Positions 1-40,332 of a stretch of DNA of 41,223 nucleotides are shown here, piece after piece. The position numbers and the translations under genes are program-made. The DNA is from a virus (taxonomy: Duplodnaviria > Caudoviricetes). The DNA lies in the IMG/VR virus record IMGVR_UViG_3300023283_000110, positions 1-41,223 of that record; one strand, 5' to 3'. The notes below the pieces were generated by a model, which made no database searches, had not been told where the DNA came from, and saw only the letters and a list, made by a program, of their open reading frames with translations. The first letter of the stretch is position 1; the number at the start of each line of letters is the position of its first letter.

Positions 1-543
1 GAAGGCGCTGACCTTTCAGGAGCCAATTTGGAAGGCGTGAAGTTTCAGGGTGCTAACTTTGAGAAGGCGAAAATGGCAAATATAATCCTTTCAAAGGCCA
101 ACCTTGAAGGTGCAAACCTTAAATTTGCAGACCTGAGTGGCGCAGAGCTCAAGAAAGTCACCCTCTTTAACGCAAACCTTAGATACGCAAGCTTTGAAGG
201 TGCTAATTTAAAAAAGGCCAACCTTGAAGACGCTAACTTTGTCCTCGCAAACCTCCGGGGCGCGAATCTTTCCGGCACAAACCTTTCAGGGGCAGACCTT
301 CAAGGCGCGGACCTGACCAAAGCCAATCTTGAGGACGCAGAGCTAACGGCGGCAAATCTTGGAGGCGCAGAGCTTGCAGACGCCAACCTGACAGACGCCA
401 ACCTTATAGGTGCAAACCTTGAAGATGCCGACCTCACAAATGCCATCCTTGAAGATGCTGACCTGACAGACGCAAATCTTAAAGATGTTAACTTTGAAGA
501 TGCAAAGGTGAAAGGTGCAAACCTGACAGAAGCTAAGCTTTGA
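1..543 (+). CDS. Pentapeptide-repeat protein, 3' part (5' part at 41107-41223 across the circular junction)
   Basis: Open frame from base 1 (EGADLSGANLEG...) with continuous A[D/N]LxX repeats; N-terminus inferred from the identity of the window end with paralog 1159-1833. Confidence 0.9.
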   Translation, partial: EGADLSGANLEGVKFQGANFEKAKMANIILSKANLEGANLKFADLSGAELKKVTLFNANLRYASFEGANLKKANLEDANFVLANLRGANLSGTNLSGADLQGADLTKANLEDAELTAANLGGAELADANLTDANLIGANLEDADLTNAILEDADLTDANLKDVNFEDAKVKGANLTEAKL

Positions 544-575: not shown

Positions 576-1139
576 ATGGCAAGAAAAAAAAGAGGCCGAC
601 CAAAGGGCGTAGGCCCACGCAAGCAAAAGCCTGAATCAAGTATGAACGGCCGCGAGGGCGAGCTGCCACGGCTGACAAAGCGTCAATACGAATTTGCCGT
701 TAAATATGCCGAGACAGGCAACGCTTTTCAGAGCTACAAACAGGTTTACAACGCGTCAAACGACCAGACGTGCCACGCTGGCGCGCACCGGGTCCTCAAA
801 AACCCCGCCGTCCAAGAATGGCTTGAAGCTTTCGCAGTCGAAGCCGTCAGGCGCGGCGGGGATGCAGTGCTGAGAAACGTTGCCGAATTTGAAAGCCTGA
901 AGCGCGGCGCAATAACCGAAAAGCAGTGGAACAGCGCTATCAGGGCGCAGGAAAATATCGCCAAACTTGAAGGCGCCATGCAAGACAGCGTTGTTATCGA
1001 GCAAAAAGAGCAACTGCCGCAGGCAATCGCCGCCATGCAAGAGGCTGGCATGATTGACGAAAACAAGGCCAAAAAACTCAAAGTGCAACTCGGCCTTGAA
1101 GAGCCGCAAACGATAGATGCAACCCCGGCAAACACCTGA
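576..1139 (+). CDS. Terminase small subunit-like protein with N-terminal AT-hook-like motif
   Basis: LTKRQYEFAVKYAETGNAFQSYKQVY...AHRVLKNPAVQEWL resembles the Terminase_2 HTH; AIRAQENIAKLEG helix; KKRGRPK at N-terminus. Confidence 0.7.
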   Translation: MARKKRGRPKGVGPRKQKPESSMNGREGELPRLTKRQYEFAVKYAETGNAFQSYKQVYNASNDQTCHAGAHRVLKNPAVQEWLEAFAVEAVRRGGDAVLRNVAEFESLKRGAITEKQWNSAIRAQENIAKLEGAMQDSVVIEQKEQLPQAIAAMQEAGMIDENKAKKLKVQLGLEEPQTIDATPANT

Positions 1140-2969: not shown

Positions 2970-2999
2970 GGATTTGATAACCCGAAAGGAGACCTGATC

Positions 3000-4325
3000 A
3001 TGACTAACAAGCACAAAATCACCAGGCTGACGCCTGAGCAGAAGGCTGACCTCCCTGTTTTCCGCCAGCAGTATCTTGACATGGCGCAATCAAAAGAGCC
3101 TGTTGACCGCGGTAAACTGGAAGACGCGATTGGCAGGGCTTACAAGTACATAGGAAAAGAGCAGCCGGCCGTGATTGTTCTGGAAAGCCCTTTGCAGTGC
3201 ATGGCAGCGATTGCGGTTCTTAAGTCTTTAGGCTTTGAAGAGCAATCCAAAGACAAGACATCAGACCAACTCAGGGGCCGGCTCAATCACCAGCTCAATC
3301 ACCAGCTCAAGGACCAGCTCACGGACCAGCTCTGGTACCAGCTTAGGGGTCAGCTCGAGGACCAACTCAGGGGCCAGCTCGGGAACCAGCTCAATCACCA
3401 GCTCAGGAACCAGCTCGGGGACCAGCTCAGGGACCATCTCAAGGACCAGCTCTGGTACCAGCTTAGGGGTCAGCTCACAGTCAATCTCGACCAACAGGTC
3501 CCGGACCAGTTCAGAGCCAAGTTCGTAAATCAGCTCATGGAGCAACTCTACTGGCAGGTGCTGGATCAAATTAAAAGCCACATCCACGCTCAAACTAAGC
3601 AGGTACTCGACGGTCAGACCCCAATACGGCTCCATGGCCAGCTCGAAGTTAATATCAGCAAGCAGGCCATGGATCAGGCCAAGCCATATGTAAGGAGGCA
3701 TATGTGGGGCTCGCAAGATTTTTACTGGATCGCGTGGGCCCGCTTTGCTCAAAAGATCGGTGTGAAACTTGACGAAGACACTAATTATAAGCTGACAACC
3801 ATGGAAGATATCTCGCAGCAATGTGAGTGGTGGTGGCCTTTTGAGGGCCTCTGTATTGTCAGCCAGCGCCCGACCAACATTTGCTGGGACTCTGAAGGGC
3901 GCCTGCATAACCTGCAAGGACCTGCGGTTGAATATGCTGACGGCTACGCTCTTTACAGTATCGAGGGCGTTTCAGTGCCCGAAGAATGGATCAAGAATCC
4001 TGAAAAGCTCAGCGCGCATGAAGCCCTCAACTGGACCGACACCGAGCAACGCGCAATCGCCTGCAACCACGTTGTCGGCTGGAACCGCATCCTTGATGAG
4101 CTTGAGGCTGTAACCATAGACAAGGATGAAGATCCAATGATCGGCGAGCTTGTCGAAGTAACCTTGCCTGACCACGGCAAGCAACGCTTTCTGCGCGTCT
4201 TGTGCGGGACAGGCCGAAACTTTGCGATAGGGGTGAGTAATGAGTATGATACCGCCCTTGAGGCTAACGCCCAGACCTATGGTTTACCCCCGGAAGTTTA
4301 CAAGCAACTTGAATTCAGGACTTAA
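3000..4325 (+). CDS. DUF6745-like protein with central QLxx tetrad repeats
   Basis: N-terminal LTPEQKA; C-terminal WWWPFEGLCIVSQRP...DSEGRLHNLQGPAVEYADG motif. Confidence 0.75.
   Translation: MTNKHKITRLTPEQKADLPVFRQQYLDMAQSKEPVDRGKLEDAIGRAYKYIGKEQPAVIVLESPLQCMAAIAVLKSLGFEEQSKDKTSDQLRGRLNHQLNHQLKDQLTDQLWYQLRGQLEDQLRGQLGNQLNHQLRNQLGDQLRDHLKDQLWYQLRGQLTVNLDQQVPDQFRAKFVNQLMEQLYWQVLDQIKSHIHAQTKQVLDGQTPIRLHGQLEVNISKQAMDQAKPYVRRHMWGSQDFYWIAWARFAQKIGVKLDEDTNYKLTTMEDISQQCEWWWPFEGLCIVSQRPTNICWDSEGRLHNLQGPAVEYADGYALYSIEGVSVPEEWIKNPEKLSAHEALNWTDTEQRAIACNHVVGWNRILDELEAVTIDKDEDPMIGELVEVTLPDHGKQRFLRVLCGTGRNFAIGVSNEYDTALEANAQTYGLPPEVYKQLEFRT
3263..3480 (+). repeat. Degenerate 12-bp coding tandem repeat (GACCAGCTCAGG-like)
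   Basis: Encodes DQLRGQLEDQL...; includes a duplicated GGACCAGCTCTGGTACCAGCTTAGGGGTCAGCTC block. Confidence 0.9.
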
Positions 4326-4727: not shown

Positions 4728-4928
4728 ATGACCCGGTTTTTAACCGAAACAGGTACGTTTCTCGGCAAGCTTGGCGCTTATGTGCTCGCAATGATTGTCG
4801 TTTTCTGGCCCTACATATTCGGGCTGGTGATAATGGCACGCAAGGAAATGTGGCTTGAATTCGTTCTTTCAACGTCTTTCTTTCCGCCAATCGCTTGGCT
4901 TTATGGCGTGTGGGAAATTTTGACCTGA
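4728..4928 (+). CDS. Small membrane protein
   Basis: RBS AGGAG, ATG 4728; two hydrophobic segments. Confidence 0.65.
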   Translation: MTRFLTETGTFLGKLGAYVLAMIVVFWPYIFGLVIMARKEMWLEFVLSTSFFPPIAWLYGVWEILT

Positions 4929-4948
4929 CCAACCCGAAAGGAGCAACT

Positions 4949-6286
4949 ATGGCAGAAACTTTATTCTCGGATCTAACGCCTGAGCAGGAGGCTGACCTCC
5001 CTGTTTTCCTCCAGCACTATTTCGATATGGCGCAATCCGCAACACCAATGGACCGGGAGGCCATAACCAAGGCAATCGGAGACGCCTATCAGGAAATTGG
5101 CTGGGACCGCCCGGACGTGATCGTTCTGCAAAGTCCGTTGCAGGCCCAAATCTTGCTGCATCTTTTGGAAAATCATGACAATCTCGATATCACCCACGAG
5201 ATTCAGAGGGCACTTCACTCTGAAACCAGGAAGAATTGCAACATCAGCTGCCGCCTCTTTGAAGCGTCTAATGGAGTCAACATACTCTCTGACCGCAAGA
5301 TATCGCGGCAGCTCATAAGGTTCGATCAGCTCGAAGAGCTCGAAAGAGAAACGAGTAAAACCTATCTAAAAGACCAGCTGATTGGGAAAGACCTTATTGA
5401 AGATTTTGGGAAACAACTTTATTATCAAATGAAGTATAATTTATCTCACCTTACCGACAGTCATTATAATTATGAGGTCAGCGCTCAGACTCAAATAGCG
5501 TTCATATTCCGTCTTACAAAGTTAATCCGGTCCAAGCTTTCCAGACACATGACGCCCCTCACAGTCAAGACTAATGATCAGCTGAGGGACGATAATGAGA
5601 ATATATTTAAAAATACATCCATCGAGTCTAATTACATTGATAACCCTGTTAGCTCATATAACCTTTCAAACTTACGTAACCTTGACTGGATCGCACATTA
5701 CCGCTTTATGCAAAATCTGGGGGTTAACTTTGACGAAGAGGCCGGCCGGCGCCTGACCATTGTGGAAAATATCGCGCAATTGTGTGAAAGGTGGTGGCCC
5801 TATGAGAACATATGCTTTGTCAGCGAAAAGCCGCAGAAAGTATGCTGGGACTCTGAAGACCGCCTGCATAACCTGCAAGGACCTGCGGTTGAATATGCTG
5901 ACGGCTTTTCAGTTTACGCTGTCGAAGGCGTGCGGGTGTCTGAATCGTGGATAAAGGACCCGTCATCACTGAGCCCGTCCGAAGCACTTCTGCTGAGAGA
6001 CACGGAAAAACGAACAATTGCCTGCAACCACATTGTCGGGTGGGACCGCATACTCGACAATCTAGACGCTGAAACGATTGATAAAGACGAAGACCCGATG
6101 GTTGGTGAGCTCGTGGAAGTGACTTTACCAGACCACGGCAAGCAGCGTTTCTTGCGTGTATTATGTGGCACAGGCAGGCGCTTTGCAATCGGCGTCAGCA
6201 ATGACCACAACACAGCACTTGAGGCTAACGCCCAGACCTACGGACTGCCACCCGATATTTACAAGCAACTTGAATTTAGAACCTGA
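4949..6286 (+). CDS. DUF6745-like protein, paralog of 3000-4325 with an unrelated central region
   Basis: RBS GAAAGGAG, ATG 4949; same N-terminal LTPEQ and near-identical C-terminal domain ending YKQLEFRT. Confidence 0.75.
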   Translation: MAETLFSDLTPEQEADLPVFLQHYFDMAQSATPMDREAITKAIGDAYQEIGWDRPDVIVLQSPLQAQILLHLLENHDNLDITHEIQRALHSETRKNCNISCRLFEASNGVNILSDRKISRQLIRFDQLEELERETSKTYLKDQLIGKDLIEDFGKQLYYQMKYNLSHLTDSHYNYEVSAQTQIAFIFRLTKLIRSKLSRHMTPLTVKTNDQLRDDNENIFKNTSIESNYIDNPVSSYNLSNLRNLDWIAHYRFMQNLGVNFDEEAGRRLTIVENIAQLCERWWPYENICFVSEKPQKVCWDSEDRLHNLQGPAVEYADGFSVYAVEGVRVSESWIKDPSSLSPSEALLLRDTEKRTIACNHIVGWDRILDNLDAETIDKDEDPMVGELVEVTLPDHGKQRFLRVLCGTGRRFAIGVSNDHNTALEANAQTYGLPPDIYKQLEFRT

Positions 6287-6314
6287 CTTAACCAACCCGA
6301 AAGGAGACTAACCA

Positions 6315-6917
6315 ATGACTAAGCAAGATATACCGGGCCGCATCCGCAAAAACGGCAGAGACGTCGATCCTTCGCTGTACACGTGGGACAGCCGCACAAA
6401 AAGCCTCTTGACCAGAGAAAACGGCCTCAACCTGCTTTTTGAAGACGTCGATCATGTGACGTTCATCACTGGCGACAACTGCGAGTTTGTCACCGGCAGA
6501 AACTGCACTTTCATAACTGGCGACTCCTGTAGCTTTGAAACTAAGTATAATTGCAACTTCATTACCCGCAGCGAATGCGATTTTAAGACCGGGCAAGGTT
6601 GCAATTTCAGAACCGGCGACGCCTGCTCTTTTGAAACCGGCTCGTTCTGCATTTTAGATGCAGGATCTCACTGCATTTTCCGCACCGGCGAGGGCTGCAC
6701 CTTTGACACAGCCTCACACGGCAACTTCAGGACCGAGGACGATTGCACCTTTAATGTTGGTGATAACTGCTGGATTAAGCCCGGCGACGATTGCGTTGTC
6801 TCAAAAAGGTTTAGCTCAACAACCTACCCGTCCACCACGCGGGGCGACATTATTCAGACCAGCGAAATGGAAGGATTTACAGTCAAGACAGCCGAGCTCA
6901 AGGATATGACAGAATGA
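6315..6917 (+). CDS. Cys-rich octapeptide-repeat (CxFxTGxx) protein, probable beta-solenoid
   Basis: About 13 tandem 8-aa repeats, e.g. TGDNCEFV TGRNCTFI TGDSCSFE. Confidence 0.75.
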   Translation: MTKQDIPGRIRKNGRDVDPSLYTWDSRTKSLLTRENGLNLLFEDVDHVTFITGDNCEFVTGRNCTFITGDSCSFETKYNCNFITRSECDFKTGQGCNFRTGDACSFETGSFCILDAGSHCIFRTGEGCTFDTASHGNFRTEDDCTFNVGDNCWIKPGDDCVVSKRFSSTTYPSTTRGDIIQTSEMEGFTVKTAELKDMTE

Positions 6918-36062: not shown

Positions 36063-36367
36063 CAGGTTGTCCGCGCTGCGACCTTCTCGCCCTGCTTGAT
36101 CCCGACGTACTCTACAGACCCGGCAGGCAAGATCGGACTGTTGGTATCAGCCGTGGGCGAAGAGCCGATATCGATATGGGCATCCGTCGTCGCCGCAATC
36201 CTCACAAACGTCGTGTTGTTGCCAACGCCGGACGTGTCAAACGTGTTCTGCGACGTGCCGCTCAGCGTCAACGTCTCCGTCGCCCCGTAGCGGTCCGCCG
36301 CCTGAATAACCTGATCGCTCTTGTCACGTGCAAGAACGATAATCTCTGTCACACTAAAATTCGCCAT
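36062..36367 (-). CDS. Small beta-rich phage protein, first gene of the late operon
   Basis: RBS GGGAG, ATG 36367; VRIAATTDAHIDIGSSPTA...LPAGSVEY. Confidence 0.65.
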   Translation of the reverse strand: MANFSVTEIIVLARDKSDQVIQAADRYGATETLTLSGTSQNTFDTSGVGNNTTFVRIAATTDAHIDIGSSPTADTNSPILPAGSVEYVGIKQGEKVAARTT

Positions 36368-36380
36368 AAAATCTCCCGGT

Positions 36381-36444
36381 AAAAGAGTGAGGGGCAAAGG
36401 GCCTTATGCTAGGTGACGGGTCATGATCCAGTGCCCCCCACAGT
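36381..36444 (-). ncRNA. Candidate hairpin small RNA/leader A
   Basis: CTGTGGGGGGCA-[~30 nt]-CCTTTGCCCCTCACTCTTTT directly after promoter TTGCTT(36477-72)-N17-TATGGT(36454-49). Confidence 0.5.
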
Positions 36445-36487
36445 TCGCACCATAGTCCAAAACTAACTCAAAAGCAAGCTCTAATCA

Positions 36488-36545
36488 GAAAGAGTGGGGG
36501 GCAAAGGCGCTTGTCGTAGCTAGTTAGCCCCGATGGCCCCCACAG
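36488..36545 (-). ncRNA. Candidate hairpin small RNA/leader B
   Basis: CTGTGGGGGCCA-[~26 nt]-CCTTTGCCCCCCACTCTTT directly after promoter TTGAAG(36579-74)-N18-TATCCT(36555-50). Confidence 0.5.
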
Positions 36546-36601
36546 CTTTAGGATAAATCCAAAGCTTACCTAACTTCAACCGTGCCAAGATCTCACCATC
36601 C

Positions 36602-36626: not shown

Positions 36627-36649
36627 CCACCACCTTTTTCATGCCAAAA

Positions 36650-37025
36650 AGGAAAGTGAACCGCGTGGGCGGGTAATACGCTTGCGCGCGGTTGAGTACA
36701 GGGCTACAAGGGGCCGAGGCCGCAGCCCAACCGCAGTCCGAAAGGCAGAAGCGGGGCCTCAGGCAGACAAGCATTGATCTGTCTTCAAGTAGCTGCCAAC
36801 CGCATGCACCAATGCTACCAGTGACATGCGGGCCTGTTGCGACGGCATGGCTCCGACGATCATCTGATCCGAGCTCATACCAAGAGGTAACCAGGCATCA
36901 GGACCAGCCAAGGTTTCTTTTTTTTTGAGGAAACCGGGGCTGGTCGTCCTATGCCTGATGCTCAAACATTCACCAACGATCATCCGGGTGGCGGCAAGAA
37001 AGGAAAGAGCAGGCAAGCTCTCCTT
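36650..37025 (+). ncRNA. Candidate large structured RNA or structured leader of the methyltransferase (strand inferred)
   Basis: About nine consecutive stem-loops, including a GAAA-capped stem; no convincing ORF. Confidence 0.5.
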
Positions 37026-37034
37026 ATAAATTAA

Positions 37035-38231
37035 ATGCCTATACTCGACTGGCTGGGCCGTGAAGAGGATGTGAAGCAGGCGGAGGCTGTGCCCTACCGC
37101 CTTTTGGAAGCTGCTCCCGATCACGCATACGGGGACGGGGACGCCGGGAATATGCTGATACAGGGCGATAATCTGGAGGCCCTGAAAGCCCTGTTGCCCT
37201 ATTATACCGGGCAAGTAAAATGCATCTTTATTGATCCGCCCTATAACACGCGCCGTGCTTTTGAGCATTATGATGACAATCTGGAACATTCAAAATGGCT
37301 GTCCATGATGTATCCCCGTCTTGAATTATTGCGGGAACTGTTGGCCGAAGACGGCTCTATCTGGGTGACTATTGATGATAATGAGGCTCATTATCTCAAG
37401 GTTATAATGGATGAAATTTTTGGCCGGAAAAACTTTATAGCGAATTGTATATGGCAAAAAAAGTATACAAGGCAAAATGACGCTCGATTTTTTAGCGACA
37501 ATCATGCCCATGTTTTTTGTTTCTGTAAAAATATAAAAAGTTTTAAAATTAATAGACTCCCTAGAACAGAAAAGATGGATTCAAGGTACAAAAACCCAGA
37601 CGCTGATCCAAGAGGTCCGTGGACATCTCATGCACTACAAGTCAAAACACCAAATGAGTCATACATATATGAAATTACCAATCCAGCAGGTGAAACTTTC
37701 TATCCGCCTCGCGGAACAAGTTGGATGTGCTCCAAAGATAGATATGAAAAACTGGTAGCCGATAATCGTATTTGGTTTGGTAAAAATGGTAGTAATGTAC
37801 CACGCAGAAAAAAGTTTCTCTCGGAAATTAATCGTGGATTAGTGCCAGTTACTATATGGCACCCAAGTGAAGTAGGGCACAATCAAGGTGCAAAAACAGA
37901 ATTAAGAAAATTGTTAGATAAATCTTTTTTTGACACACCCAAACCAGAAAAACTTCTAAAGCACATCTTGTATATAACAACAAACAAAAACGATCTTGTT
38001 CTTGATTCATTTTTAGGCTCTGGCACAACAGCCGCTGTGGCCCATAAAATGGGACGACAGTATATCGGCATCGAAATGGGTGAACATATCGAGACCCATT
38101 GTATACCGCGTCTGAAAAAAGTCATTGACGGGGAACAAGGCGGCATATCCGAGGATACGGGCTGGGAAGGCGGCGGCGGATTTCTCTATTATAGATTGAG
38201 CAGCCGATTTTACCCGGATACGACCGCATGA
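37035..38231 (+). CDS. Orphan N6-adenine DNA methyltransferase (beta class, type III Mod-like)
   Basis: NMLIQGDNLEALK, IDPPYNT, TPKPEKLL, DSFLGSGTTAAVAHKMGR, GGGGF; no restriction subunit in window. Confidence 0.9.
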   Translation: MPILDWLGREEDVKQAEAVPYRLLEAAPDHAYGDGDAGNMLIQGDNLEALKALLPYYTGQVKCIFIDPPYNTRRAFEHYDDNLEHSKWLSMMYPRLELLRELLAEDGSIWVTIDDNEAHYLKVIMDEIFGRKNFIANCIWQKKYTRQNDARFFSDNHAHVFCFCKNIKSFKINRLPRTEKMDSRYKNPDADPRGPWTSHALQVKTPNESYIYEITNPAGETFYPPRGTSWMCSKDRYEKLVADNRIWFGKNGSNVPRRKKFLSEINRGLVPVTIWHPSEVGHNQGAKTELRKLLDKSFFDTPKPEKLLKHILYITTNKNDLVLDSFLGSGTTAAVAHKMGRQYIGIEMGEHIETHCIPRLKKVIDGEQGGISEDTGWEGGGGFLYYRLSSRFYPDTTA

Positions 38232-38506
38232 CCTGCAATGTGATTGCTTTTGCTGGATAAAGGCCGTTTGAATTGGCTGGAGGAATGTTGGGCAATAGCA
38301 AAAATGAGAGAACCCGAAGGGGTGTCCCCCCACCCTTGCCTTAGCGGGCAACAACCTAAAAGATCATTTACTTATAGCAACATATTGTTACTGATGCCCT
38401 ACCCATTGACTGATGCCAACCCATGGCATGGGGTAGGGTGGATGGATGAGTGGCGGTTGCTGCTTGCCGCAAGCTTTCCAACCCCGGCGGGCTAAGCACG
38501 TAACAT

Positions 38507-38610
38507 TAGCCTAACCTCCCCGCCCCGTAGCCTAACCTCCCCACCCCGTAGCCTAACCTCCCCACCCCGTAGCCTAACCTCCCCACCCCGTAGCCTAACC
38601 TCCCCACCCG
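38507..38610. repeat. Five tandem 21-bp repeats
   Basis: TAGCCTAACCTCCCC(A/G)CCCCG starting at 38507, 38528, 38549, 38570, 38591 (last copy 20 bp). Confidence 0.97.
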
Positions 38611-38946
38611 CTGCCTGCAGCAACCCTCTTGCCTGCCTGCCTTGCTAACCTTGCTAGCCTGCTAACTGCCCGCTGAAACCCGCTCTATTGCCCCACTTGC
38701 CTCTGCAAGGCCATAGGATTGCCACACAGCTTAAGAAGCCTCAGAAGGATCATACACCCATCCAGACACCACTAAGCCGCCATACGGCAATCCTCAGGCT
38801 TTAAGTGTGAAGCAGGGGTAAGAACAAAATGAGAACAGGCTGGTGACAGGCTGACCGCAGGATGAGCCGGGCTTCTGGACCGAAAAAGGGTTTTTTAGGC
38901 TGTTTGAAGTGGGCTTGAGTAGACGCCGAAAACCTTAATCCGGCGG

Positions 38947-39367: not shown

Positions 39368-39643
39368 ATGACTACCGAAAACAAGACCAGAACCTTTCCA
39401 GCAACCGTTCACATGCACCCCAGCGGCTACAGCCGCAAGCCGTGCAGCTTTGTCATCGAAGACGAAAGGCATCTTCAGCGCTGCATTATGGATGAGGAGC
39501 TTCGACGTCAAGACGATTTTGACGAATTTATGGAGCGCCACGGGATTCCCGAAGAAGAGCGTTTTAGCGTCAGCAATTTTGTGGACTATTTCGACGAATT
39601 CGCGCGATACGTCGAAATTGAATATGGCGTGGACAACGCCTAG
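39368..39643 (+). CDS. Acidic hypothetical protein, first early gene
   Basis: RBS AAAAGGAG; Asp/Glu-rich. Confidence 0.7.
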   Translation: MTTENKTRTFPATVHMHPSGYSRKPCSFVIEDERHLQRCIMDEELRRQDDFDEFMERHGIPEEERFSVSNFVDYFDEFARYVEIEYGVDNA

Positions 39644-39745
39644 CTTGTGCTTGACGCGTGGCTAGCTGGCCAAGGCTGGCTAGCCTCCGGCAAACATGAG
39701 ATTGCCTTAAACCAACCTTACCCAAAAGGAGATTTAGAGATGACT
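39631..39745 (+). repeat. ~115-bp intergenic element, copy 1 (two hairpins plus RBS)
   Basis: Near-identical to 40217-40332. Confidence 0.92.
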
Positions 39746-40240
39746 ATTGTTAGAATCGAACACGCAATTGAGGCATATGAACTTTATATCCTCGATGTAG
39801 ATTGCGACGCAAACACGCCGCCCGGACGGCAACAGCGTCTGGCCGTTGAAAAAGCGGTCAAAGACGGCTTGAGCCTGAAAGACGCGGATCTGTACGACTA
39901 TACGTTGTCAGCAACAAGTCTCGCAAACACTGATCTTCGACGCGCTAACCTTGCATACGCCAAGCTTAGAGACGCGGATCTGCGGAAAGCCAAACTTCAA
40001 CAAGCTGACCTTGAAGGCGCTGACTTGGGGGGCGCCAACCTTCAAGAAGCAAACCTTAAAAGCGCTGACCTGCGAGGCGCCAATCTTGCAAGCGCGGATC
40101 TGCGGAAAGCCAACCTGGAAGACGCTAACCTTGAAGGCGCTGAGCTGATAGGCGCGTTCCTCCGGGACGCTAACCTTGAGGGCGCTAACCTTAAAGGTAC
40201 GTGGAGAGAAGAGCAGGGACAACACGTAACTTGTGCTTGA
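39740..40240 (+). CDS. Pentapeptide-repeat protein
   Basis: RBS AAAAGGAG, ATG 39740; A[D/N]LxX repeats. Confidence 0.9.
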   Translation: MTIVRIEHAIEAYELYILDVDCDANTPPGRQQRLAVEKAVKDGLSLKDADLYDYTLSATSLANTDLRRANLAYAKLRDADLRKAKLQQADLEGADLGGANLQEANLKSADLRGANLASADLRKANLEDANLEGAELIGAFLRDANLEGANLKGTWREEQGQHVTCA

Positions 40241-40332
40241 CGCGTGGCTAGCTGGCTGCTGGCTGGCTAGCCTCCGGCAATCACAAGATTGCCTTAAACT
40301 AACCTGACCCAAAAGGAGAATTTGAGATGACT
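40217..40332 (+). repeat. ~115-bp intergenic element, copy 2
   Basis: Near-identical to 39631-39745. Confidence 0.92.

What the first reader, a model, noticed from the sequence alone, without database searches (positions are those of the whole stretch)
36381..36579. Tandem promoter + hairpin RNA cassettes with conserved stems and variable loops
Seen on the minus strand: two units 107 bp apart, each a sigma70-like promoter with a similar spacer (TTTGGA before -10), followed within 4-5 nt by CUGUGGGGG(G/C)CA, an unrelated 26-30 nt interior, and CCUUUGCCCC(U/C)CACUCUUU. The ends pair into a ~10 bp stem. Interior A: UGGAUCAUGACCCGUCACCUAGCAUAAGGC; interior B: UCGGGGCUAACUAGCUACGACAAGCG. The complement of A reads like a translation start (AGGTGA-cgggtc-ATG). 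Inference: a constant scaffold carrying a variable guide, i.e. a two-member family of ~60 nt antisense or guide RNAs. Alternative: tandem late promoters with attenuator leaders, since unit A ends 14 nt before the first late gene. No Cas or recognisable effector is nearby. This is my best candidate for an undescribed system.
Basis: partly seen in the sequence, partly recalled or inferred. Interest (0 to 1): 0.8.

Follow-up and report, generated by a model that had tools for sequence, protein, structure and literature searches.

The report
Phage mini-RNAs copying unknown prophage RNA
An uncultured phage carries two back-to-back promoter-plus-hairpin cassettes whose stem matches the end of a neighbouring folded RNA element shared by about sixty prophage and genome loci and absent from the RNA family catalogue, and the cassettes likely gate the phage's virion genes while releasing short RNAs.

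Summary
The two units are real: a minus-strand duplication with promoter-like sites, a 9-10 bp closing stem, a 2x2 loop, GG/CC and a U-rich tail. No target beyond chance was found for either interior, and no homologous cassette was found in the collections searched. The 'programmable guide' reading is therefore unsupported. Unit A ends 14 nt before the first late gene, so it is probably that operon's leader.

The surprise lies next door. 36655-36985 (+) is a ~330-nt structured RNA with about 60 distinct relatives in alphaproteobacterial prophages and genomes, strong covariation, no Rfam family, and frequent placement beside replication genes. An internal segment co-varies as a direct repeat with a segment at its own 3' end and has no partner on the same strand, which suggests pairing with the opposite DNA strand, as ColE1 RNA II does. 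The cassettes' 3' arm matches this RNA's last domain: ranks 1 and 2 of 5313 hairpins.

Best reading (0.4): a borrowed RNA module used as a late-operon attenuator that sheds ~60-nt RNAs. Main rival (0.27): free decoys or regulators of the large RNA. No transcript was observed.

The parts
36550..36579 (-). Promoter-like site of unit B (-35 at 36579-36574, -10 at 36555-36550)
   Evidence: sequence, coordinates; below the threshold of the scan; activity untested
36487..36546 (-). Unit B, predicted ~60-nt RNA: 9/10-bp stem, 2x2 loop, GG/CC, 26-nt interior, U-rich tail
36449..36477 (-). Promoter-like site of unit A (-35 at 36477-36472, -10 at 36454-36449)
   Evidence: activity untested
36381..36444 (-). 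Unit A, predicted ~64-nt RNA with the same scaffold and a 30-nt interior; ends 14 nt before the first late start codon
36062..36377 (-). Ribosome-binding site and first gene (101 aa, no family) of the late block that runs on to terminase, capsid and tail genes
   Evidence: distant homologues in L029, L080, L081
36602..36626 (.). Two back-to-back TTGACA hexamers (minus 36607, plus 36621) between the cassettes and the large RNA; possible divergent promoters
   Evidence: inference
36655..36985 (+). Large structured RNA element, about 60 distinct homologues, no Rfam family at gathering score
36839..36864 (+). Internal segment 'seg1' of the large RNA, with two variable blocks
36891..36963 (+). Last domain of the large RNA (long hairpin); its closing stem and tail are what units A and B resemble
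36965..36984 (+). Terminal segment 'seg2', a co-varying direct repeat of seg1
37035..38231 (+). DNA methyltransferase gene directly behind the large RNA, with a low-GC central part

Best explanation
The two units are duplicated promoter-plus-hairpin cassettes whose closing stem and tail match the last domain of the neighbouring ~330-nt structured RNA family, and they likely serve as the promoter-proximal gate of the late operon, shedding ~60-nt RNAs when polymerase stops at the U-rich tail and giving late mRNA when it reads through.

Shown: the duplication, the stem, the match to the last domain, and the 14-nt gap to the first late gene.
Inferred: that the promoters fire, that the tails terminate, that a phage or host factor recognises the stem/2x2 loop/tail and controls read-through (as Q does at lambdoid late promoters), and that the interiors drift because the arms, not the loops, carry the function.
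For the large RNA itself, the likeliest role (inferred) is to fold and pair seg1 with the template DNA strand at seg2, holding an R-loop open near replication genes.
For: Geometry: there is no room for a separate promoter between unit A and the RBS. The slot upstream holds the large RNA and a methylase on the opposite strand.
Arms are conserved between units while the interiors are not significantly alignable, and no target was found.
Arm match: a profile from 59 homologues, window excluded, ranks B and A first and second (17.7 bits) of 5313 long-interior hairpins in 552,717 bases; a true family member is third (16.8) and the best non-member scores 9.5. A motif-plus-stem scan of 1,797,206 bases gave 36 hits: 35 on the family's last domain and 1 on unit A. 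7 of 9 hits of the two-unit model in 80 loci fall on that domain (best E 0.063).
In homologues the last domain likewise often lies shortly before a downstream gene. The phage has a P22-like terminase and an O-like initiator, a layout in which late transcription is classically gated by a promoter-proximal terminator (PMC4825925, passages).
Against: No Q-like protein was recognised among the 44 and 50 ORFs scanned, which overlap and are not all ORFs. Related phages with the same late block have no such cassette upstream, so the gate is not a conserved feature of the group. The promoters are below the consensus threshold and the hairpins are atypical terminators with 30-33 nt interiors. A second, upstream copy (B) is not needed for gating. 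The reciprocal model of the last domain, dominated by its core sequence and built with a poor structure, does not find the units. The two-unit model missed the domain in other searches. The profile columns were chosen after the resemblance was noticed, and the weight for the two C's was set by hand.
Confidence: 0.4

Rival explanations
1. The units are free, trans-acting copies of the last domain. They titrate the protein that binds it, or pair with seg1, and so tune this phage's large RNA or interfere with the same RNA in competing prophages.
For: Adjacent, divergent placement and a shared stem and tail. Within the large RNA both interiors find their best bare duplex at the same site, seg1 (A -24.9 kcal/mol, 23 of 4098 genome windows as good; B -21.4, 98 of 4098). 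The window's allele ranks first of 60 for both. Shuffled interiors are both first and as strong in 1 of 400 (A) and 15 of 400 (B).
Against: Against seg1 alone, 80 of 5000 (A) and 466 of 5000 (B) shuffles do as well. With structure included, binding is -1.1 and -3.2 kcal/mol, no better than controls (296 and 192 of 750 windows as good). Neither unit is complementary to the second variable block. No such unit lies near other family members or in 20 phage records that carry the RNA.
Confidence: 0.27
2. The units are programmable antisense/guide RNAs (anti-sRNA or C4 style) whose variable interiors silence host or foreign mRNAs.
For: Constant arms around largely unpaired interiors; an anti-Shine-Dalgarno-like stretch in A. 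Precedents: 51-60 nt prophage anti-sRNAs near late promoters (PMC4104026, passages) and C4 loops (PMC5320573, passages).
Against: Best duplexes in the own genome (-33.0, -31.0) lie within 8 shuffles each. There are 35 near-matches to A's complement in 34 of 401 genomes; among the 30 fetched, only one pair is homologous and none exceeds 20 of 30 nt. B's complement matches 2 of 401 genomes. No effector gene was recognised. The host is unknown, so its transcriptome could not be tested.
Confidence: 0.13
3. An ordinary duplicated promoter-terminator cassette (PeSL-like); the short RNAs are by-products and the resemblance to the large RNA is incidental.
For: Such cassettes exist in phage accessory regions (PMC2839356, abstract). 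The slot is variable among relatives. No homologous unit was found in any collection searched.
Against: An 8-bit gap over 5310 background hairpins and 35 of 36 motif hits on one family are hard to ascribe to chance. The interiors are far larger than terminator loops.
Confidence: 0.12
4. The signal acts as DNA: inverted-repeat arms bound by a protein (repressor, replication or packaging factor), copied from the large element.
For: The last domain is an inverted repeat that scores on both strands. The locus is within 2 kb of a conserved terminus-like motif and 21-bp tandem repeats.
Against: G-U pairs far outnumber A-C in covarying columns on the + strand (e.g. 17 vs 0), as expected for a folded single strand. 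The units sit exactly between promoter-like sites and U-rich tails.
Confidence: 0.08

Closest known systems
Lambdoid late promoter with promoter-proximal terminator and Q antitermination (PMC4825925, passages)
   Same: Promoter, short leader and stop signal directly ahead of the late operon; a shared promoter spacer that could bind a factor
   Different: Two tandem copies; large-interior hairpin related to another RNA family; no Q recognised
EHEC prophage anti-sRNAs AgvB/AsxR (PMC4104026, passages)
   Same: 51-60 nt size, location by the late promoter, constant plus variable parts
   Different: There the 5' 14-18 nt vary and the 3' part is constant; here both ends are constant and pair; no target found
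P1/P7 C4 and P4 CI antisense RNAs (PMC5320573 and PMC4825925, passages)
   Same: Terminal stem enclosing loops; the large RNA has the layout repeat-hairpin domain-repeat, like seqA-CI-seqC
   Different: No Rfam C4 match; the variable blocks of the repeats have no complement in the enclosed domain; the units have their own promoter-like sites rather than being processed out
ColE1 RNA II primer (PMC5043065, passages), for the large RNA
   Same: Long folded non-coding RNA near replication functions, predicted to hold a hybrid with its own template
   Different: No sequence or Rfam relation; found in prophages; allele-specific two-block repeat; R-loop and priming untested
Rfam Betaproteobacteria-1 (RF02932)
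   Same: Weak matches to the 5' ~100 nt of the large RNA in the window (E 0.068) and in L146 (E 0.012)
   Different: 22-32 bits against a gathering score of 49.4; not hit in 5 other loci or 10 further short loci; model is 120 nt and lacks seg1, the last domain and seg2
PeSL cassettes of T4-type phages (PMC2839356, abstract)
   Same: Repeated promoter plus stem-loop in an accessory region
   Different: Only two copies, large interiors, ahead of late genes, shared stem with a separate RNA family

Membership tests
Any Rfam 15 family (units A, B) | Score at gathering threshold | tested here: not met
   0 matches in the window; none over the units at E<=10
CRISPR/TIGR-type guide arrays | Array of identical repeats under one promoter with a nearby effector gene | tested here: not met
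   Two units, each with its own promoter-like site; the arms are inverted, not direct, repeats; no effector among ORFs scanned. Family features are recalled.
Prophage anti-sRNAs (AgvB/AsxR) | Variable 5' seed on a conserved 3' part | tested here: not met
   5' arm is conserved and paired
Prophage anti-sRNAs (AgvB/AsxR) | Hfq binding and pairing with a host sRNA | not testable with these tools
   Host unknown; no binding data
C4/CI antisense RNAs | Loops complementary to repeated targets up- and downstream | tested here: inconclusive
   Bare duplex with seg1 p=0.016 (A), 0.09 (B); not supported once structure is included; weak pairing to seg2
C4/CI antisense RNAs | RNase P processing from a longer leader | not testable with these tools
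   No RNA data
Lambdoid late-promoter/Q system | Promoter and stop signal directly before the late operon | tested here: met
   As sequence pattern only:
Lambdoid late-promoter/Q system | Q-family antiterminator gene | tested here: not met
   None among ORFs scanned with PHROGs and Pfam; a divergent factor is not excluded
PeSL cassettes | Strong sigma-70 promoter with a compact terminator stem-loop, many copies | tested here: not met
   Not listed by the scan; two copies only
Betaproteobacteria-1 (large RNA) | Gathering score 49.4 bits | tested here: not met
   22.0 and 31.9 bits at best; 0 at gathering in 20 loci
ColE1-type primer RNA (large RNA) | Persistent RNA-DNA hybrid that primes replication | not testable with these tools
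   Indirect only:
Last domain of the new large-RNA family (units) | Closing stem, inner CC and 3' tail | tested here: met
Last domain of the new large-RNA family (units) | Conserved inner core strand | tested here: not met
   Model R2 does not hit the units; the core's invariance is partly forced by my search pattern

The most novel reading that the evidence does not exclude
Alphaproteobacterial prophages carry an undescribed ~330-nt RNA that uses an allele-specific internal guide to pair with its own template DNA and open or prime replication without a protein initiator. This phage additionally makes two free mini-copies of the RNA's last domain that act in trans as decoys or immunity factors against that RNA: an RNA-only origin with RNA-only antagonists.
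Probability: 0.25. Interest if true: 0.9.

Novelty: new variant of a known kind. Interest (0 to 1): 0.7.

Why it matters
A well-covarying RNA of this size that is missing from Rfam and spread through alphaproteobacterial prophages is a ready experimental target. Its co-varying direct repeat, with no same-strand partner, predicts a testable RNA-DNA pairing, and compensatory swaps between natural alleles test it directly. The two cassettes show the RNA's last stem reused as a stand-alone module, which points to the part that a protein or RNA polymerase probably reads. If only the cautious reading holds, this is an unusual late-operon attenuator plus a new RNA family of unknown function.

Tried and rejected
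Homologue searches for the units, all empty or chance:
- IMG/VR patterns: 2 and 4 hits with no cassette context on inspection.
- Metagenome pattern: 1 hit, an unrelated G/C-rich hairpin.
- GTDB pattern: 0.
- BLAST of annotated phages: 0.
- Model R1: 0 outside the units in 94 loci; 0 of 30 related phage records; 0 of 5 and 0 of 151 alphaproteobacterial genomes; 0 of 20 phage records that carry the large RNA.
- Scaffold pattern: 2 of 401 genomes, both inside ORFs and without the stem.
- R1 rests on two sequences and is insensitive, so these results mean 'not found', not 'absent'.

Expression and variation: no RNA holder listed. Three DNA runs of one study, one possibly the source, show no differences over the units where they cover them; they are not independent.

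Leads rejected:
- Pairing of B with the repeated early-gene leader at 39648 and 40234 (-31.0, -30.4) is within the shuffled range.
- The excess of A-complement matches over the reversed control and the deficit for B look like composition effects. The 'start-like' calls (7 of 30) are inflated because the pattern holds an in-frame stop. The start-codon check had an offset error and was redone.
- A trans partner for the large RNA's variable blocks was not found within 1.4 kb or in 7 phage records plus the window.
- RF02932 search of 3 genomes and 14 controls rang nowhere and is uninformative.
- Resemblances to tRNA-Ala ends, boxA/boxB, put RNA, hairpin ribozyme, Y RNA and IS110 bridge RNA were considered from recall and dropped. 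Only the bridge-RNA idea was touched by data: no covariation with outer flanks.

Literature: searches listed no paper on either element. PMC12191101 and PMC4496710 (passages) held nothing relevant. The supplement of PMC5737381, which may describe Betaproteobacteria-1, could not be read.

Full report
Setting. The window is a whole 41,223-base virus record. It has a P22-like terminase (best named relatives 42-47% identical), an O-like initiator, recombination genes and a long minus-strand virion block that begins at 36367. Relatives in IMG/VR share the late block at roughly 40-60% protein identity. In several of them a conserved motif precedes the late genes. In the window it lies at 38266-38323, and a regular expression finds it in L028, L029, L030, L050, L080 and L081. 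The DNA between this motif and the first late gene differs from phage to phage. Here it holds a methylase, a structured element and the two units.

The observation. Both units are as described, and the repeat is beyond chance (0 of 300 shuffles). Each folds into a 9-10 bp stem, a 2x2 pyrimidine loop and a GG/CC pair with pair probabilities above 0.9, around a mostly open interior. The interiors do not align globally (1424 of 10000 shuffles as good); only the last 14 nt show a weak match (8 of 14). The promoters are plausible but below the tool's threshold. Unit A ends 14 nt before the first late start codon, with the ribosome-binding site in between.

Guide hypothesis. No target was found in the phage or as a shared gene in 401 alphaproteobacterial genomes. 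No effector was recognised, and no further units were found (see Tried and rejected). Rfam has no match. The host is unknown; alphaproteobacteria were searched because the neighbouring element's relatives are there.

The neighbouring RNA. 36640-37035 folds far better than shuffles (z -4.7 on +). A weak plasmid hit and a phage hit gave a seed pattern. After filtering 142 rows (78 rejected), 64 distinct candidates remained including the window, one of them spurious. The filter also dropped some genuine members. In an alignment of 63, many column pairs covary with 90-100% complementarity, including crossing sets (82:124, 84:122, 85:121 with 110-113:153-156). G-U exceeds A-C on the + strand (35 members shown). 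These counts are not corrected for relatedness, and the core's invariance is forced by my seed pattern. Rfam gives 0 matches at gathering in 20 loci and only weak matches of the 5' part to Betaproteobacteria-1. I scanned 20 neighbouring proteins chosen by eye from 14 loci. In 5 loci the RNA follows a primase that matches only the first half of its profile; in 4 it precedes an initiator or primosomal gene; in 1 an SSB; in 3 terminase or tail genes; 3 proteins had no family.

Its odd feature. An internal segment (seg1) and a segment at the 3' end (seg2) co-vary by identity, not complementarity, in two blocks (84-97% identical columns). 59 of 64 candidates have at least 7 of 10 matches in the second block. 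The complement of seg2 pairs best with its own seg1 in 46 of 60 alleles and within the top five in 56. Mismatches are G(seg1)/A(seg2) 158 times against A/G 15 times, as expected if seg1 pairs with the strand complementary to seg2. The pyrimidine counts go the other way (C/T 11, T/C 5), and many G/A sites are near-fixed. No same-strand partner was found within about 400 nt in 50 elements or within 1.4 kb, and none stood out in 7 phage records. I infer pairing with template DNA, or with a cis-antisense RNA. The nearest precedent is ColE1 RNA II (PMC5043065, passages). The layout also recalls P4 seqA-CI-seqC (PMC4825925, passages).

Link between the units and the RNA. The two-unit model put 7 of its 9 weak hits in 80 loci on the RNA's last domain. 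A 3'-arm profile from 59 homologues ranks the units first and second of 5313 hairpins, 8 bits above the best non-member. A motif scan of 1.8 Mb returns 35 last domains and unit A; B is missed because of its C-C mismatch. Against this, the units lack the inner core and are not found by the reciprocal model, and the profile was chosen after the fact. Both interiors pair best at seg1 within the RNA, but the signal disappears when structure is included, so antisense control of the neighbour is possible but not supported well.

Mechanism and verdict. Geometry makes unit A the probable leader of the late operon, and arms conserved around drifting interiors point to a module read by shape or by arm sequence. 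I commit to a borrowed RNA module acting as a promoter-proximal attenuator that sheds short RNAs (0.40). Free decoy or regulator of the large RNA (0.27), programmable guide (0.13), ordinary cassette (0.12) and DNA site (0.08) remain. The cassettes work like a lambdoid late leader but fail its Q test. The large RNA belongs to no catalogued family by the tests run. My literature searches listed no description, but the library is partial and one relevant supplement was unreadable. No transcript was observed for any part.

Noticed in passing
window 36655-36985 (+); L110, L114-L137, many of L140-L256: Undescribed ~330-nt structured RNA family in alphaproteobacterial prophages and genomes with a co-varying two-block direct repeat; deserves its own study.
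   Followed up: yes
window 38266-38323 (-); L028, L029, L030, L050, L080, L081; similar by eye in L004: Conserved non-coding motif ahead of the late genes in this phage group, probably a packaging or terminus signal, or a late promoter.
   Followed up: partly
window 38507-38611: Five 21-bp tandem repeats, iteron-like; run X1 shows a 20-base omission at 38487, and a contig of X2 joins across 38327-38581.
   Followed up: no
window 39640-39745 and 40225-40332; also 1134-1175, 2975-3016, 6295-6321: Repeated leader with a hairpin and the same ribosome-binding context in front of several early genes, a cassette-like arrangement.
   Followed up: partly
window 28-543, 1117-2554, 39647-40240: Several pentapeptide-repeat stretches and genes in the early region.
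   Followed up: no
window 3000-4325 and 4895-6286: Two paralogous DUF6745 proteins, the first with a 12-bp tandem repeat tract at about 3241-3552.
   Followed up: no
window 576-1139 (+): Terminase small subunit-like gene (just under the Pfam cut-off) far from, and opposite in strand to, the large subunit.
   Followed up: no
window 37035-38231: Orphan DNA methyltransferase with a low-GC centre, 53-57% identical to plasmid enzymes; an Agrobacterium plasmid copy of the large RNA also lies beside a methyltransferase, but in the opposite arrangement.
   Followed up: partly
L118, L123, L132, L134, L137: Primase genes of about 305 aa that match only the N-terminal half of longer primase profiles and end just before the large RNA.
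   Followed up: partly
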